Virus record (IMG/VR): IMGVR_UViG_3300032323_004296
Direction: 5' to 3' (one strand)
DNA: 10,730 bases
DNA from: a virus
Taxonomy: Duplodnaviria > Heunggongvirae > Uroviricota > Caudoviricetes
Shown: positions 2 through 9,060 of the stretch, piece by piece
How positions within the stretch are numbered: position 1 is the stretch's first letter
Layout: each line of letters opens with the position of its first letter
Notes under the pieces: model-generated
Databases searched by the model: none
What the model saw: only the letters and a program-made list of their open reading frames with translations
What the model was told of the DNA's origin: nothing
Translations under genes and position numbers: made by a program

Positions 2-91
2 GGTGCTCAGGGAGGACAAGGTGCTCAGGGAGGACAAGGTGCTCAGGGAGGACAAGGTGCTCAGGGAGGACAAGGTGCTCAGGGAGGACAA
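2..91 (+). repeat. Perfect 18-bp tandem repeat x5 (GGTGCTCAGGGAGGACAA = GAQGGQ); may extend upstream of the window
   Basis: Copies at 2, 20, 38, 56 and 74, with a further copy at 137-154; all in the collagen frame. Confidence 0.95.
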
Positions 92-1378
92 GGTGCTCAA
101 GGAGCAACAGGAAATATAGGGGCAACAGGAACTACAGGTGCTCAGGGAGGACAAGGTGCTCAGGGTGTACAGGGTGCTCAAGGAGCTCAAGGTGTTCAAG
201 GTACGACTGGAGCTCAGGGTGCTCAGGGTGCTCAGGGTGCACAGGGTGCTCAAGGCTCCACAGGAACTACAGGTGCTCAAGGAGCTCAGGGTGCTCAGGG
301 TGCACAGGGTGCTCAAGGCTCAACAGGAACTACAGGTGCTCAAGGAGGACAAGGTTCTCAAGGTTTAATTTTAGGACCACAAGGACCACAAGGACCACAA
401 GGTGCCCAAGGGGCGAGAGGACCACAAGGAGCACAAGGTGCTCAAGGTGGACAAGGTGCTCAAGGCGGACAAGGTGCTCAAGGTGCACAAGGTTTTCAAG
501 GTGCTCAAGGTGGACAGGGAGCTGAAGGGGCCACAGGACAACAAGGTCCACAGGGTGCGCAAGGTGCTCCAGGTGTCACAGGAGCCCAAGGAGTACAAGG
601 AGCGACAGGTTTTCCTGGTGCAAATGGTCAACAGGGGCCACAAGGAGCTCAAGGGGCTCCTGGAGTTGCAGGTGCACAAGGTCCACAAGGAGCAAAAGGA
701 AATATTGGTGCAATAGGACTGAGTCCGACCGTACCAGGAAATACAGGTAATCCAGGTCCACAAGGAAATACGGGACCTCAAGGAGGGCAGGGTGCTCAAG
801 GACCACTTGGTGGACAAGGTTTTCAAGGAGCCCAAGGGGCACAGACCTTTGGTCCTCCTGGTACTCAAGGTGCTCAAGGAAATGTTGGTGACCAAGGTGT
901 TAATCGTGGTGGTCTTCCCCCAGGACCTGAAGGTGCTCAAGGTGCTACGGGTGCTCAAGGTGCTCAAGGACAAAGTGGAGGTCCAGGACCAACGGGTGTC
1001 CAAGGGGCTCAAGGTCATCCTGGTGCCACAGGTAGGACAGGTGCAATCGGACCACCATCTGACTCAAGGATGAAGAAAAACATTAAAGTAATTGAGGATG
1101 CTGTTAGTATAGTCCAAAAATTGAGAGGTGTTAGATTTAAGTGGAAGGACCCACAAAAATATCATATTCACAAGAAAGATGATGATGATATAGGTTTCAT
1201 TGCACAAGAACTTCAAGAGGTTTTACCACAGGTTGTATATGGTGACGAAAAAAATGGATATAAAGTAAAATACTCTGAGATTGTTGCAATTTGCACTGAA
1301 GCAATTAAAGAACAATATGGATTGTTGACTCAGATAGAGGATAAGTTAAAAAAGATAGAAGACAAACTTAACGGTTAG
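2..1378 (+). CDS. Collagen-like (Gly-X-Y) fibre protein with C-terminal peptidase S74 intramolecular chaperone; 5'-truncated by the window
   Basis: Hand translation from base 2 gives no stop to TAG 1376-1378: GAQGGQ...GPQGPQGPQ...GAIGPP, then S-D-S-R-M-K (1058-1075), which fits the S74 S-D-x-R-x-K autocleavage motif. It continues [23 protein letters not shown] and a C-terminal coiled coil (AIKEQ...[12 protein letters not shown]). The track ORF 1070..1378 is only its last 102 aa. Confidence 0.93.
221..346 (+). repeat. 63-bp tandem duplication within the collagen region
   Basis: 221-283 and 284-346 are identical except one synonymous change (TCC vs TCA). Confidence 0.9.
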
Positions 1379-5708: not shown

Positions 5709-5836
5709 TGAAAAGTTTTATTAGAAAAGTTGAATGGTTCGTAGATTATTATTTCGTTTGGATGTTGTATAACGGCAGTAAGGGTCACAAGTATATCGAA
5801 TATATGGAGAAAAAATGGGGTAAGAATGAAAAATAA
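5708..5836 (+). CDS. Small aromatic-rich hypothetical protein, 42 aa (absent from ORF track)
   Basis: MKSFIRKVEWFVDYYFVWMLYNGSKGHKYIEYMEKKWGKNEK*; starts in a TGATG overlap and overlaps the next gene by 11 nt, exactly filling the gap. Confidence 0.75.
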   Translation: MKSFIRKVEWFVDYYFVWMLYNGSKGHKYIEYMEKKWGKNEK

Positions 5837-6014
5837 AGACTTCTTTTTTGCAATGTTATTTTCTCTCATAATTGGGTTAACAATTGTTGGACTTACTAAC
5901 AAAGGAGAAAAAGAATTACCTACTCCTTCAACTCGGGACACTACCTCTCAAGAGTATTACAAAAAAAGTTTAGATAGTTTCTTTTTCGACCATAGTAAAA
6001 TACCTAATGAATGA
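5826..6014 (+). CDS. Small membrane-anchored hypothetical protein, 62 aa
   Basis: Basic N-terminus then a hydrophobic stretch FFFAMLFSLIIGLTIVGL; overlaps the next gene by 8 nt. Confidence 0.7.
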   Translation: MKNKDFFFAMLFSLIIGLTIVGLTNKGEKELPTPSTRDTTSQEYYKKSLDSFFFDHSKIPNE

Positions 6015-6663
6015 TGTGAAACCATACAAAGACCAAAAGTTAACATATTCATCTGATGGTAGATTGTTAGATGAATATGGTAACGCAGTTATGATGGAGT
6101 GGGAAAGACCCATAATGAAAAAGTCTGCTGAGGTAATTTGTAGAAATGGTGGTAAAGTTTTAAATGTTGGTTTCGGGATGGGAATCATTGATAGTTATAT
6201 CCAAGAACAAAATATTACTGAACATTGGATTATAGAACCACATATAGATGTGTATAGAAAAATGTTTGATGATGGATGGCATTTGAAACCTAAAGTGAAG
6301 ATATTATTTGGTGATTGGCAGTGGTATTTCAAATACCTACCCATGTTCGATGGGATATATTTTGACACTTGGGAAGACGACGGAGGTGACTTTTTGATGA
6401 AAGTTCGTAGTATTCTAAAAGAGAATGGAATCTTTTCATATTTCAATAACCCGAGAGAAGATGAAAAAGGACTCCATATGACGGACGATGATTTCGAAAT
6501 TATAACTAAGTGGGGTGAGGTTGAGTTTCAGCCTATTGATTTAGATTTTATAGATTCAACGGATAGACAAAGGACGGATGGTTTAATATATTGGTACCCT
6601 GAGTGGAAAAAATATTATTGTCCTATAATAAAGAAAAAAAACGTTCCTTATTACACATTTTAA
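6007..6663 (+). CDS. Class I SAM-dependent methyltransferase, Rmt2 / guanidinoacetate methyltransferase (GAMT) family
   Basis: VMMEWE, motif I VLNVGFGMGIID, EHWIIEPH, DGW, G-D-W-Q, FDGIYFDT and GIFSYFN match in order the motifs I recall for yeast Rmt2 and animal GAMT. Confidence 0.85.
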   Translation: MNDVKPYKDQKLTYSSDGRLLDEYGNAVMMEWERPIMKKSAEVICRNGGKVLNVGFGMGIIDSYIQEQNITEHWIIEPHIDVYRKMFDDGWHLKPKVKILFGDWQWYFKYLPMFDGIYFDTWEDDGGDFLMKVRSILKENGIFSYFNNPREDEKGLHMTDDDFEIITKWGEVEFQPIDLDFIDSTDRQRTDGLIYWYPEWKKYYCPIIKKKNVPYYTF

Positions 6664-6672
6664 AAAAATAAT

Positions 6673-7152
6673 ATGCCCAAAGGATTATTAAAATTTAGCA
6701 ACACACTCCTCACTCCACCAAAGTGGTATGTTTACACTGTTTTGTATAACGGAGCATGGTCTGAGGGAATAGAACTTCATGGTGAAGAACAAGAGATTTG
6801 TAATCAACATTTTGATTTCTTTAACAAAGATGGAATAGGAATGGAGGTTGAATACGAAGCTCACATGAATGACATCACTCAAAATTACGTCCTCACAAAT
6901 ATCAGACAATTATTACCAAAATCCTCTGAATCAGTAAACCACCCTAATCACTACGGAGGAGAAAGTAATACCTATGAGGTTATAAAGGTATGTGAGGCTT
7001 GGGATTTGGATAAAGATGCTTATTTGTTCAATGTGGTTAAATATGTTGCAAGAGCTGGTAAGAAAAATCCATCTAAAGAAATAGAGGATTTGGAAAAGGC
7101 AGTATTTTATTTAAACAGAAAAATTCAAAACCTCAAAAATGAAAAAATATAG
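6673..7152 (+). CDS. DUF3310 (T7 gp1.7 nucleotide-kinase-like) domain protein with an extra N-terminal region of about 85 aa
   Basis: C-terminal VNHPNHYGG...YEVIKV.EAW......FNVVKYVARAGKK....EDLEKA..YL is the DUF3310 signature. Confidence 0.8.
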   Translation: MPKGLLKFSNTLLTPPKWYVYTVLYNGAWSEGIELHGEEQEICNQHFDFFNKDGIGMEVEYEAHMNDITQNYVLTNIRQLLPKSSESVNHPNHYGGESNTYEVIKVCEAWDLDKDAYLFNVVKYVARAGKKNPSKEIEDLEKAVFYLNRKIQNLKNEKI

Positions 7153-7321
7153 AATATTCGATAAATTATTTATGTCCTTGGGGTTTATTTCTGCAGGAAT
7201 TAGTTCATTTATTGATTATAAAGAAGGGGAACCTTTCATTTGGCAACTATCATGCATGGTTTGGATAACAGTTGCATACATTAAACAAATGTCTATAGAA
7301 AGTATGGAGGACGAGGAATGA
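7139..7321 (+). CDS. Small two-helix membrane protein, 60 aa
   Basis: Two hydrophobic segments (LFMSLGFISAGISSFI; FIWQLSCMVWITVAYI); overlaps both neighbours, with an ATGA coupling to the kinase. Confidence 0.65.
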   Translation: MKKYRIFDKLFMSLGFISAGISSFIDYKEGEPFIWQLSCMVWITVAYIKQMSIESMEDEE

Positions 7322-7752
7322 TAATTTGGTTAACAGGACAACCAGGTAGTGGAAAATCTACAATTGCTAATGAACTTGTTTCAGATAGTACGGGTACATT
7401 CATTAACATAGATGGAGACGACCTCAGAGAAATATTTCAAAACAAAGATTATAGTGAAGTCGGTAGGAGAAAGAATATTGAACTAGCACAACATATTGCA
7501 GTGTTCCTTCATAGAAAAGGTTTTCATCCGGTAGTATCATTGGTTTCTCCTTACAAAGACCAAAGAGATAAGTTCAAAGATAAGATGGGTAAAGATATTT
7601 TGGAGGTTTACGTTCATACAACACAAATAAGAGGAAGGGAGAATTACTTTGTCAAAGAATATGAAGAACCATCGGAGAACTATTTAAGTTTATGTACGGA
7701 TGATATCACACCTGAAGAATGTGTGTCATATATATTAACTCGAATAATGTAA
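7318..7752 (+). CDS. cysC: Adenylylsulfate (APS) kinase-like P-loop kinase, compact 144-aa form
   Basis: IIWLTGQPGSGKST, IDGDDLR, GRRKNI, VSLVSPY, EVYV and YEEP are all CysC hallmarks. The lid region (CExRDPKGLY...FTGI in canonical CysC) is much shorter. Confidence 0.8.
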   Translation: MIIWLTGQPGSGKSTIANELVSDSTGTFINIDGDDLREIFQNKDYSEVGRRKNIELAQHIAVFLHRKGFHPVVSLVSPYKDQRDKFKDKMGKDILEVYVHTTQIRGRENYFVKEYEEPSENYLSLCTDDITPEECVSYILTRIM

Positions 7753-7758
7753 TAAGTG

Positions 7759-8160
7759 ATGAAAAAAATTCACGTAGAAGGTGACCCAAAACTTAAAAAC
7801 ACAGGAGGTAAACAATACTCCATGGTTGTGGGACGATTCCAACCTTTTCATGATGGTCACAAATGGTTGGTAAATCAATGTATCGAAGAAGGAAAAAACG
7901 TTTTAATTTGTATCAGGGACATCAAACCCGATGAAAAAAACCCATTCACTCCTCAAGAAGTGGAAATGAAAATTAAGCGAGACCTATGGCAACTTTTAGG
8001 TGATGAAAGGGTTAAAGTTATTATTATACCTGACATAGAATCTATTAATTTTGGAAGGGGGGTTGGATATGATATCATAGAACATATTCCACCCGACGAT
8101 ATTAGAGAGATATCAGCAACAAAAATCAGACAAGAACTTCGAGACGAAGGTTTGTTATAG
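7759..8160 (+). CDS. HxGH (cytidylyltransferase-like, NadM-related) nucleotidyltransferase, 133 aa
   Basis: GRFQPFHDGH, KNPFT, IPDIES and ISATKIR. An in-frame GTG at 7756 is an alternative start. Substrate uncertain. Confidence 0.85.
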   Translation: MKKIHVEGDPKLKNTGGKQYSMVVGRFQPFHDGHKWLVNQCIEEGKNVLICIRDIKPDEKNPFTPQEVEMKIKRDLWQLLGDERVKVIIIPDIESINFGRGVGYDIIEHIPPDDIREISATKIRQELRDEGLL

Positions 8161-8182
8161 TCAAAAAATTTTTTATATTTTG
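8151..8182 (+). promoter_or_regulatory. Candidate Bacteroidota-type promoter TTTG-N19-TATATTTT(G) before the DNA methyltransferase
   Basis: TTTG 8151-8154 and TATATTTT 8174-8181 (one mismatch to TAnnTTTG). TTTGTTTATG at 8179-8188 is identical to 5272-5281. Confidence 0.45.
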
Positions 8183-8185
8183 TTT

Positions 8186-9049
8186 ATGGAAAAATACGTT
8201 GGTAAAATACTGAATGGGGATTGTATTGAAGTTATGAAAGACATTCCTGAGAATTCTATTGATTTAATTGTTACCTCTCCACCCTATGGAGTTGGAATTG
8301 ATTACGACACACATGATGATGATGTTGATTTCGAAGAATATAAAAAGTTTTCAAAGAGTTGGTTAACAGAAGCCTACAAAGTATTAAAAAACGATGGGAG
8401 ATTAGCTCTCAATATACCCTATGAGATTAATAGACAATCGAAAGGGGGTCGAATCTTTATGGCGGCAGAACTATGGTCAGTCATGCAGAGTATCGGTTTT
8501 AAATTCTTCGGAATTGTGGACTTAGAAGAAAATTCTCCACACAGAAGCAAGACTACGGCATGGGGGTCGTGGATGTCGCCATCATCTCCTTACATTTATA
8601 ATCCTAAAGAGTGTATAATTTTGGCTTACAAGAACAATCATATTAAGAAGGTTAAGGGTGAACCACAATGGAAAGGAGAAGAAACCTTAATCGAGAACGA
8701 AGATGGTACTTCAAGAAAGAAGATGGTTTATTCTGAAGAAAATAAGAAAGAATTTATGGAGTTGGTCTTCGGTCAGTGGGACTACTTCGCAGACACAAAA
8801 TCACTCACCAAGGCAACATTCTCAATGGATATTCCAACGAAAGCAATCAAAATACTCTCATATAAAAATGATTTAATACTTGACCCGTTTGCTGGTAGTG
8901 GAACTAGTTTGGTTGCTGCGGAAATCTTAGACCGAAGGTGGGTAGGAATTGAACTGAGTGAAAACTATTGTGAAATTGCTAAGAAAAGAGTTCAAGGGTT
9001 CATCGATAAGAAAAAACAATTGGAATTGGATTTGAAAGAGGGGAATTAA
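8186..9049 (+). CDS. Orphan beta-class DNA amino-methyltransferase (N4-cytosine more likely than N6-adenine), 287 aa
   Basis: GDCIEVM, IDLIVTSPPY (motif IV) N-terminal; ILDPFAGSGTS and GIE (motif I/II) C-terminal. ATG 8186 is preferred over TTG 8180. No restriction endonuclease in the window. Confidence 0.92.
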   Translation: MEKYVGKILNGDCIEVMKDIPENSIDLIVTSPPYGVGIDYDTHDDDVDFEEYKKFSKSWLTEAYKVLKNDGRLALNIPYEINRQSKGGRIFMAAELWSVMQSIGFKFFGIVDLEENSPHRSKTTAWGSWMSPSSPYIYNPKECIILAYKNNHIKKVKGEPQWKGEETLIENEDGTSRKKMVYSEENKKEFMELVFGQWDYFADTKSLTKATFSMDIPTKAIKILSYKNDLILDPFAGSGTSLVAAEILDRRWVGIELSENYCEIAKKRVQGFIDKKKQLELDLKEGN

Positions 9050-9060
9050 CCCCTTTTTTT
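9035..9060 (+). terminator. Intrinsic terminator ending the central operon
   Basis: AAAGAGGGG-AATTAA-CCCCTTTTTTT; the stop codon of the methyltransferase lies in the loop. Confidence 0.75.

What the first reader, a model, noticed from the sequence alone, without database searches (positions are those of the whole stretch)
6007..6663. Phage-encoded Rmt2/GAMT-family guanidino methyltransferase
Seen: all family motifs in order, including W-E (residues 32-33) and D-T (120-121), which correspond to the acidic guanidino-binding residues of GAMT. NVGFGMGIID, DGW and SYFN look closer to Rmt2 than to GAMT. Established: yeast Rmt2 delta-N-methylates an arginine of ribosomal protein Rpl12 (uL11 family); GAMT methylates guanidinoacetate to creatine; both are best known from eukaryotes. 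Inference: the phage methylates a guanidino or amidino group. Candidates are an Arg on host uL11 or another translation or defence protein, a phage structural protein, a small metabolite, or an amidine-bearing modified base. Delta-arginine methylation as a phage strategy is not something I know to be described.
Basis: partly seen in the sequence, partly recalled or inferred. Interest (0 to 1): 0.75.

Follow-up and report, generated by a model that had tools for sequence, protein, structure and literature searches.

The report
Phage Rmt2/GAMT-family guanidino methyltransferase gene
A large freshwater phage carries an intact, strongly conserved enzyme of the family that methylates guanidino groups (as in arginine); it is closer to the eukaryotic ribosomal-protein arginine methyltransferase Rmt2 than to the creatine enzyme GAMT, and its target is still unknown.

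Summary
The ORF at 6007-6663 (+) is real: 218 aa, under strong purifying selection (dN/dS 0.04-0.08). It belongs to the GAMT/RMT2 SAM-methyltransferase family (PF27704). It matches solved GAMT at E 1.7e-16 (profile 4.5e-24). The AF2 model (pLDDT 92) hits fungal Rmt2 domains best (31-35% identity), then GAMT (25-28%). E33 and D120-T121 align with GAMT E45 and D134-T135 and are invariant across phage, eukaryotic and bacterial clades.

In a tree, the stand-alone phage forms make a deep clade of their own. It is separated (98% SH-aLRT) from ankyrin-fused eukaryotic Rmt2 and sits beside TPR-fused bacterial forms.

In this phage lineage the gene is always followed by a DUF3310 (T7 gp1.7/SaV-type) gene, and in some relatives it is fused to it. 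Other lineages, including one complete genome, lack that partner.

No amidinotransferase or DpdA/TGT enzyme was found in related records.

The most likely function is methylation of the internal nitrogen of a guanidino group, probably a protein arginine. The substrate is unproven.

Phage "GAMT" genes are already reported as auxiliary metabolic genes (PMC11360552). This scan found the same family before on other DNA. Verdict: a new member of a known, uncharacterised viral clade.

The parts
6007..6663 (+). Gene for a 218-aa stand-alone GAMT/RMT2-family (PF27704) SAM-dependent N-methyltransferase. SAM motif I is V54-GFGMG-59. E77 is the acidic residue at the end of strand 2. The guanidino-binding/catalytic pair is E33 and D120-T121.
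   Evidence: dN/dS 0.04-0.08
6673..7152 (+). Gene for a 159-aa protein with a C-terminal DUF3310 domain (residues 88-148; T7 gp1.7 / SaV type). It starts 9 nt after the methyltransferase stop. It is always the next gene in this phage lineage and is fused to the methyltransferase in several relatives.
5826..6014 (+). Small upstream ORF (62 aa) whose stop overlaps the methyltransferase start by 8 nt (ATGAATGA). The genes lie in one tightly packed rightward operon with no Shine-Dalgarno sequence.
   Evidence: conserved in L001-L006

Best explanation
The gene encodes an active, stand-alone class I SAM-dependent methyltransferase of the GAMT/RMT2 family. It belongs to a large, old clade found mainly in viruses.

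By analogy with GAMT and Rmt2, E33 and D120 would hold a monosubstituted guanidinium group, and D120 would take the proton as the SAM methyl goes to the internal (delta-type) nitrogen.

The most likely substrate is an arginine side chain of a protein, from the host or the phage. That would make it a viral type IV-like protein arginine methyltransferase.

It works as an independent cargo gene in the early/auxiliary region. In this lineage only, it has become coupled to a DUF3310 (gp1.7/SaV-type) module, which may act as an adaptor or co-acting partner.

Shown: family membership, fold, conserved catalytic residues, purifying selection, clade position, the DUF3310 adjacency and fusion.

Inferred: the chemistry, the protein nature of the substrate, and the role of DUF3310.
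For: - Family and fold: GAMT E 1.7e-16 and 4.5e-24 with a profile. PF27704 is on 98%-identical relatives. AF2 pLDDT is 92. Foldseek top PDB hits are GAMT at TM 0.75-0.79. Top Swiss-Prot models are fungal Rmt2 at E 1e-18 and 31-35% identity, against GAMT at 25-27%.
- Same profile, different scores: ankyrin-type Rmt2 proteins score 130-190 bits; GAMT scores 85-88 bits.
- Catalytic residues: MM-WE, GxGxG, D62, H73, E77, H79, W104, D120-T121, F146-N147 and Y195-W196 are invariant or nearly so in the phage, eukaryotic and TPR-bacterial clades. GAMT Asp134 is the proposed catalytic base (PMC12471008).
- Protein substrate: the relatives on both sides of the phage clade carry protein-interaction modules. 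These are ankyrin repeats in eukaryotic Rmt2 and TPR repeats in bacterial MAG proteins. Yeast Rmt2 makes delta-N-methyl-Arg67 on Rpl12 (PMC10265986, PMC3365026).
- The gene is functional: dN/dS 0.04-0.08. The phage recurs in lake metagenomes of 13 or more studies.
- Independent cargo gene: neighbours differ completely between four phage lineages.
Against: - The protein has no targeting domain. It is the size of GAMT, a small-molecule enzyme.
- Residues invariant in eukaryotic Rmt2 (G148, V156, W190) are replaced in the phage clade by N148, L156 and T190, alongside its own conserved P149 and Q188. Substrate recognition therefore differs from Rmt2.
- The tree is unrooted, built by the quick method, and lacks GAMT itself.
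- The fusion to a domain known from a nucleotide kinase points away from a protein substrate.
- No target protein is identified, and no biochemical data exist for any viral member.
Confidence: 0.5

Rival explanations
1. It is a small-molecule guanidino N-methyltransferase and acts as an auxiliary metabolic gene. It methylates a free guanidino compound (guanidinoacetate to creatine, free arginine, agmatine, 4-guanidinobutyrate or similar) to change host nitrogen or energy metabolism, or to make an antimetabolite.
For: - It is a stand-alone ~218-aa protein like GAMT (236 aa), with the N-terminal segment aligned from residue 14.
- Ocean-virome work classes such genes as GAMT (K00542) and finds them 85-fold enriched in viruses (PMC11360552).
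- The lack of a targeting domain fits a diffusible substrate.
Against: - It is closer to Rmt2-type proteins than to GAMT in identity, structure score and profile bits.
- The loop whose backbone binds the guanidinoacetate carboxylate in GAMT (C-N-L170-T171-S) reads F-N-N-P-R here.
- No amidinotransferase that could supply guanidinoacetate was found in five related viral records, one of them complete.
- Bacteria are not known (my own knowledge) to keep a creatine/phosphocreatine system.
Confidence: 0.25
2. It is a nucleotide- or nucleic-acid-directed methyltransferase. Together with the gp1.7-type DUF3310 module, it methylates the guanidine-like N1-C2(N2)-N3 part of a guanine nucleotide, or another amidine/guanidine-bearing base, as part of phage DNA or nucleotide-pool modification.
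For: - In 55 of 55 loci of this lineage the next gene is DUF3310. Several sub-lineages encode one fused MT-linker-DUF3310 protein (P0018).
- T7 gp1.7, a nucleotide kinase, carries the same domain (E 4.5e-23; PMC10700055).
- The neighbours are nucleotide-related: a P-loop kinase, an NMNAT-like enzyme and a CcrM-like DNA methyltransferase.
- In another lineage a DUF1599 'nucleotide modification associated' gene lies nearby.
Against: - The methyltransferase occurs without any DUF3310 in a 100%-complete 164-kb genome, and 48 kb away from it in another record.
- The same DUF3310 module is fused to unrelated N-terminal domains, so it looks like a general module rather than a pathway partner.
- No TGT/DpdA enzyme was found.
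- No member of this family is known to act on a base.
- The kinase/NMNAT pair looks like NAD salvage and comes and goes among relatives.
Confidence: 0.08
3. It is a methyltransferase whose substrate is not a guanidino group at all. The family scaffold would have been reused for another amine, for example a polyamine as in the structurally similar aminopropyl/putrescine transferases.
For: - Spermidine/spermine synthases and putrescine N-methyltransferase are the next structural neighbours (E 1e-7, TM 0.6-0.68).
- One close relative is named 'spermidine synthase' by JGI.
Against: - The E33/D120-T121 pair and about 20 other positions shared with GAMT and Rmt2 are invariant.
- Similarity to the polyamine enzymes is only 14-19% identity and much weaker than to GAMT/Rmt2.
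Confidence: 0.07

Closest known systems
Rmt2, type IV protein arginine N-methyltransferase (yeast Rmt2; fungi, plants, stramenopiles)
   Same: - It is the best structural and sequence match to the catalytic domain (E 1e-18, 31-35% identity, TM ~0.8).
- The same profile scores ankyrin-type Rmt2 proteins at 130-190 bits.
- Nearly all Rmt2-invariant catalytic residues are shared.
- The expected chemistry is methylation of the internal guanidino nitrogen.
   Different: - It has no ankyrin or N-terminal region (218 aa against about 400).
- It lies in a separate clade (98% SH-aLRT).
- The Rmt2-invariant G148, V156 and W190 are replaced. It has phage-specific N148, P149 and Q188.
- It is viral, and its target is unknown.
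GAMT, guanidinoacetate N-methyltransferase (PDB 1XCJ, 3ORH)
   Same: - Same family, fold and size.
- E33 pairs with E45, and D120-T121 with D134-T135.
- The EHWIIE and VGFGM motifs are shared.
   Different: - Identity is only 25-28%, and profile bits are lower (85-88).
- The carboxylate-binding loop differs (FNNPR against CNLTS).
- No amidinotransferase partner was found in related phages.
Viral 'GAMT' auxiliary metabolic genes of ocean viromes (Tian et al. 2024, PMC11360552) and the UniProt/BFVD entry 'putative guanidinoacetate methyltransferase [uncultured marine phage]'
   Same: - Same kind of stand-alone phage gene.
- The BFVD model matches at E 1e-16.
- Marine relatives fall in the same short-form clade.
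   Different: - Those reports assume creatine synthesis from the KEGG label, without residue, tree or context analysis.
- This window is from a freshwater lineage that is coupled to DUF3310.
TPR-fused PF27704 proteins of bacterial MAGs (Alphaproteobacteria/Pseudomonadota, about 400 aa)
   Same: - The catalytic core is shared over profile positions 3-147.
- They group on the phage side of the tree.
   Different: - They have an N-terminal TPR array and a shorter, divergent C-terminal lid.
- G59 is replaced by A, and N147 by Q.
- They are uncharacterised.
T7 gp1.7 nucleotide kinase / lactococcal phage SaV (DUF3310 proteins)
   Same: The downstream partner, which is fused to the methyltransferase in relatives, carries the same 60-aa DUF3310 domain. 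It is 34% identical to T7 gp1.7 over that domain.
   Different: - Its N-terminal part is unrelated.
- No kinase activity is shown for it.
- The domain is not part of the methyltransferase in this window.

Membership tests
GAMT/RMT2 methyltransferase family (Pfam PF27704) | Significant match to family members or the family model | tested here: met
   GAMT chains score E 1.7e-16 and 4.5e-24 with a profile. Relatives at 98% identity carry PF27704. The local Pfam copy lacks the model.
GAMT/RMT2 methyltransferase family (Pfam PF27704) | Class I Rossmann-type SAM methyltransferase fold with glycine-rich motif I and an acidic residue at the end of strand 2 | tested here: met
   AF2 pLDDT is 92. Foldseek to GAMT gives TM 0.75-0.79. 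VGFGMG 54-59 and E77 are invariant.
GAMT/RMT2 methyltransferase family (Pfam PF27704) | Acidic pair that binds and deprotonates the guanidino group (GAMT E45 and D134) | tested here: met
   E33 and D120 align to them. They are invariant in 38 phage, 49 eukaryotic and 8 bacterial sequences. The role of D134 is from PMC12471008. The role of E45 is from my own recall of the GAMT structure papers.
GAMT/RMT2 methyltransferase family (Pfam PF27704) | SAM-dependent methyl transfer to a guanidino nitrogen | not testable with these tools
   This needs an enzyme assay.
Rmt2 (type IV PRMT) orthologue | Catalytic domain nearer to Rmt2 than to GAMT | tested here: met
   Identity is 31-35% to Rmt2 against 25-27% to GAMT, and E is 1e-18 against 1e-13. 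Profile bits are 130-190 against 85-88.
Rmt2 (type IV PRMT) orthologue | N-terminal ankyrin-repeat region before the catalytic domain | tested here: not met
   The whole protein is 218 aa and the domain starts at about residue 7. Ankyrin repeats are present in the long relatives.
Rmt2 (type IV PRMT) orthologue | Falls inside the eukaryotic Rmt2 clade | tested here: not met
   A branch with 98% SH-aLRT separates the phage short forms plus TPR forms from the ankyrin/eukaryotic clade. The tree is quick, unrooted and lacks GAMT.
Rmt2 (type IV PRMT) orthologue | Clade-invariant substrate-side residues (G148, V156 and W190 in query numbering) | tested here: not met
   The query has N148, L156 and T190. 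The phage clade has its own N148, P149 and Q188.
Rmt2 (type IV PRMT) orthologue | delta-N-methylation of Arg67 of uL11 (Rpl12) | not testable with these tools
   The yeast fact comes from PMC10265986 and PMC3365026. Whether the arginine is conserved in the unknown host's uL11 was not tested.
GAMT (creatine synthesis enzyme, EC 2.1.1.2) | Substrate-carboxylate loop as in GAMT (backbone of L170-T171 in C-N-L-T-S) | tested here: inconclusive
   It aligns to F146-N-N-P-R150. The contacts are by backbone, so sequence alone cannot decide. The role of L170/T171 is from my own recall.
GAMT (creatine synthesis enzyme, EC 2.1.1.2) | A source of guanidinoacetate (amidinotransferase) in the same genome | tested here: not met
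   PF02274 is absent from five related viral records, one of them 100% complete. The records of this lineage are only 31-49% complete, and the host was not examined.
Phage 7-deazaguanine / amidine-base DNA modification system | DpdA/TGT-family base-exchange enzyme in the genome | tested here: not met
   PF01702 is absent from the same five records, while the control rang in 14 of 14 genomes.

The most novel reading that the evidence does not exclude
In this phage lineage the methyltransferase and the gp1.7-type DUF3310 module (adjacent here, fused in relatives) would act on a guanine nucleotide. They would methylate its guanidine-like edge and feed it on, giving a so far undescribed methylated purine in the phage nucleotide pool or DNA.
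Probability: 0.07. Interest if true: 0.85.

Novelty: new member of a known kind. Interest (0 to 1): 0.45.

Why it matters
If the enzyme methylates a protein arginine, it would be the first viral type IV-like arginine methyltransferase, and a new way for phages to modify host or phage proteins. Arginine methylation is barely known in bacteria, from my own knowledge.

The result also bears on virome studies that count these genes as 'creatine synthesis' auxiliary metabolic genes. The sequence evidence here says that label is probably wrong.

The clade is large (thousands of metagenomic sequences) and widespread in lakes and oceans. It is under strong selection, so one biochemical characterisation would annotate many genes.

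The recurrent fusion to DUF3310 gives a concrete handle on that common but poorly understood phage domain.

Tried and rejected
- Local Pfam, PHROGs and NCBIfam scans of the protein found no hit. The local Pfam copy lacks PF27704, so this is not evidence of novelty.
- Cultured and deposited phages gave one distant tblastn hit, 34% identity in an unannotated 635-kb metagenomic phage, and no DNA match.
- The window's own assembly is not held.
- Complex prediction of the methyltransferase with the DUF3310 domain gave no verdict (score 0.00). This counts neither for nor against binding.
- The AF2 model of the DUF3310 protein was too poor to search (pLDDT 56.5).
- P0451 and P0449 looked like further divergent MT-DUF3310 fusions in BLAST. 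hhalign rejects this (probability 4% and 0.1%).
- P0438-P0450 carry DUF3310 on an unrelated N-terminal domain.
- A tree that includes GAMT could not be built. No tool returned a GAMT sequence as a usable record, and I did not type one.
- The Bacteroidota-type TAnnTTTG promoter boxes proposed by another first-stage note are not enriched (15 found, 13.8 expected).
- Metatranscriptome: one 215-nt contig (6594-6808) from an RNA library bridges the methyltransferase stop and the DUF3310 start. DNA carry-over cannot be excluded, so this is no proof of transcription.
- The spermidine-synthase reading was rejected on residue conservation and weak similarity.

Full report
**Observation.** The window holds an ORF at 6007-6663 on the + strand that encodes 218 aa. 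Its ATG overlaps the stop of a small upstream ORF by 8 nt. The next gene starts 9 nt after its stop, and there is no Shine-Dalgarno sequence. It therefore sits in a tightly packed rightward operon that runs from about 2715 to the window's end. The window is phage DNA. It encodes a collagen-repeat tail fibre with an S74 chaperone domain, a DUF3310 protein and a DNA methyltransferase. Relatives at 97-98% identity lie on 108-113 kb IMG/VR and JGI viral contigs from freshwater. The stretch recurs in lake metagenomes of at least 13 studies.

**Family.** Local Pfam, PHROG and NCBIfam copies gave nothing. However, 364 relatives in the large protein collection carry PF27704, named 'GuanidinoAc_N-MeTrfase'. 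phmmer against PDB sequences finds only GAMT (E 1.7e-16). A profile of 37 relatives raises this to 4.5e-24 and extends the alignment to residue 150. The AF2 model is confident (pLDDT 92.2, pTM 0.90). Foldseek puts GAMT structures first in the PDB (TM 0.75-0.79, 25-28% identity). In AFDB/Swiss-Prot, thirteen fungal Rmt2 catalytic domains come first (E down to 2.7e-18, 27-35% identity), followed by vertebrate GAMT (25-27%). Spermidine synthases follow far behind (E 1e-7).

The same profile searched against 1.84 billion cluster representatives finds 2163 proteins. The first twenty or so are stand-alone proteins of 200-230 aa. After them come 330-570-aa proteins with the domain at the C-terminus (130-190 bits). 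Those carry ankyrin repeats. Where they are named, they come from Hondaea, diatoms and fungi as 'protein arginine N-methyltransferase 2'. GAMT scores 85-88 bits with that profile.

**Catalytic residues.** E33 aligns with GAMT E45, and D120-T121 with D134-T135. Asp134 is the proposed proton acceptor in GAMT (PMC12471008). Across 38 phage-type, 49 eukaryotic and 8 TPR-type sequences, M29-M30, W32-E33, G55/G57, D62, H73, I75, E77, H79, W104, D120 and Y195 are invariant or nearly so.

The clades differ on the substrate side. The phage forms have F-N-N-P-R and Q188. Eukaryotic Rmt2 has F-N-G-L, V156 and an invariant W at position 190. GAMT has C-N-L-T-S in the loop whose backbone, by my recall, binds the carboxylate of guanidinoacetate. 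The gene is under strong purifying selection (dN/dS 0.04-0.08 against four relatives).

**Phylogeny and distribution.** I built a quick maximum-likelihood tree of 95 domain sequences, reduced to at most 65% identity. It puts 39 short forms and the 8 TPR-fused bacterial proteins on one side of a branch with 98% SH-aLRT. The ankyrin/eukaryotic clade lies on the other side. The six short sequences inside the eukaryotic clade look like partial gene models; for example, the cluster of P0204 has a 414-aa member. The phage clade is deep, with end branches of 0.3-2 changes per site. The tree is unrooted and lacks GAMT, which I could not obtain as a usable record.

Among one genome per prokaryotic species, only six loci matched the search patterns:
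- Three are 48-49% identical copies on short MAG contigs. One of these (Hanamia, Chitinophagaceae) lies beside ordinary bacterial genes.
- Three are distant copies. Two of them are stand-alone ORFs of 209 and 232 aa.

**Context.** I compared 80 IMG/VR loci. In the query's own lineage (at least 57% identity, 55 loci), the next gene is always a DUF3310 gene. A CcrM-like DNA methyltransferase usually follows. The P-loop kinase and NMNAT-like pair present in the window occurs only in a subset. That lineage is syntenic throughout, so adjacency alone says little.

More telling, several sub-lineages encode one protein made of methyltransferase, a variable 15-45-aa linker and DUF3310. These are L007/8, L010, L011-14 and L015-18, plus P0018 with 55 member sequences.

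DUF3310 is the domain of T7 gp1.7, a nucleotide kinase. I checked this directly (E 4.5e-23; 34% identity to the window's partner). It is also the domain of the lactococcal early protein SaV and of cytotoxic mycobacteriophage proteins (PMC8306868, PMC10700055).

Three results limit the weight of this link:
- The same DUF3310 module (70-75% identical) is also fused to unrelated ~240-aa N-terminal domains.
- A 100%-complete 164-kb phage genome with the methyltransferase has no DUF3310 at all.
- In another record the two genes are 48 kb apart.

The more distant homologues sit in at least three other phage lineages with quite different neighbours:
- GroEL, clamp loader, MT, then DUF1599 and an FkbM methyltransferase.
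- MT, a 4HBT thioesterase, then an Fpg-like glycosylase and an epimerase.
- A 2OG-Fe(II) oxygenase, MT, then a SET-domain protein or a sulfotransferase.

The methyltransferase therefore behaves as an independent cargo gene.

**Tests of specific ideas.** No amidinotransferase (a guanidinoacetate source) and no TGT/DpdA enzyme (7-deazaguanine insertion) occur in five related large records. The records of the query lineage are only 31-49% complete. The kinase and nucleotidyltransferase next door resemble APS-kinase-type P-loop kinases and NMN adenylyltransferases. They look like NAD-salvage cargo rather than partners of the methyltransferase.

**Interpretation.** Family, fold and catalytic residues make guanidino N-methylation the expected chemistry. 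On both sides of the phage clade, the relatives carry protein-interaction modules (ankyrin, TPR), while the small-molecule enzyme GAMT is more distant. I therefore favour a protein arginine as substrate (about 0.5), over a free guanidino metabolite (about 0.25), a nucleotide or base (about 0.08) and a non-guanidino substrate (about 0.07). The lack of a targeting domain and the clade-specific substrate-side residues mean it should not be filed as an Rmt2 orthologue. It works like Rmt2/GAMT but forms its own clade.

**Known or new.** Viral 'GAMT' genes are already reported as the most virus-enriched auxiliary metabolic gene in the oceans and read as creatine synthesis (PMC11360552). They are mentioned for P2-like viruses (PMC13100340). 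A marine phage entry is annotated the same way. Earlier agents of this scan reached the same family-level reading on two other genomes. My own searches, tree and residue analysis agree with them.

- the residue-level three-clade comparison;
- the TPR-fused bacterial relatives;
- the recurrent DUF3310 fusion and the limits of that link;
- the selection estimate.

No paper found here reports delta-N-arginine methylation by a phage.

Noticed in passing
window 2-1378 (+): This is the 3' part of a tail-fibre gene with long collagen triple-helix repeats (PF01391, E 2e-38) and a C-terminal S74 intramolecular chaperone domain. Local GC is 56%, against about 33% in the rest of the window.
   Followed up: partly
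window 7318-7752 and 7756-8160 (+): An APS-kinase-like P-loop kinase sits next to an NMN-adenylyltransferase-like protein. PHROG 10255 holds both as one fused 'kinase'. The pair is present in only part of the lineage and looks like NAD-salvage cargo.
   Followed up: partly
window 8180-9049 (+), hairpin 9034-9059: A CcrM-like N6/N4 DNA methyltransferase (PF01555, E 1e-35) is followed by a terminator-like hairpin. This gene usually follows DUF3310 in relatives.
   Followed up: no
P0438-P0450: The same DUF3310 module (70-75% identical to the window's) sits at the C-terminus of 294-426-aa proteins. Their ~240-aa N-terminal domains match no Pfam family and are not methyltransferases. DUF3310 therefore behaves as a portable C-terminal module.
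   Followed up: partly
L084:6611-8173, L072:7454-9417, L085:6001-7547: In another phage lineage the methyltransferase homologue lies next to a P4H-type 2OG-Fe(II) oxygenase and either a SET-domain protein or a sulfotransferase-like protein. In yeast, uL11 is modified by both Rmt2 and a SET enzyme (Rkm2). The parallel is untested.
   Followed up: no
L055:5206-10322, L079: A marine T4-like lineage (one 164-kb complete genome) places the homologue between a clamp-loader AAA+ gene with GroEL upstream and a DUF1599 'nucleotide modification associated' gene. L055 also encodes a 150-aa CorA C-terminal fragment.
   Followed up: no
P0273-P0387: This is a family of ~400-aa bacterial MAG proteins (Alphaproteobacteria/Pseudomonadota) with an N-terminal TPR array fused to the PF27704 domain. 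They are uncharacterised and could be bacterial protein arginine methyltransferases.
   Followed up: partly
L087:140-2237: A Hanamia (Chitinophagaceae) MAG contig carries a 48%-identical stand-alone copy next to a CoA transferase and a LuxR-type response regulator. This may be a cellular copy or a hint at a Bacteroidota host range.
   Followed up: no
window 6934-7095: In lake metagenomes, summed contig depth over the DUF3310 domain is 5-25 times that of its flanks, with many loose ends. Many different lake phages share this conserved domain.
   Followed up: no
L001:16501-16573, L005/L006:14579-14651: A tRNA-Met (CAT) gene lies about 6 kb downstream of the methyltransferase in close relatives. 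It is beyond the window's end.
   Followed up: no
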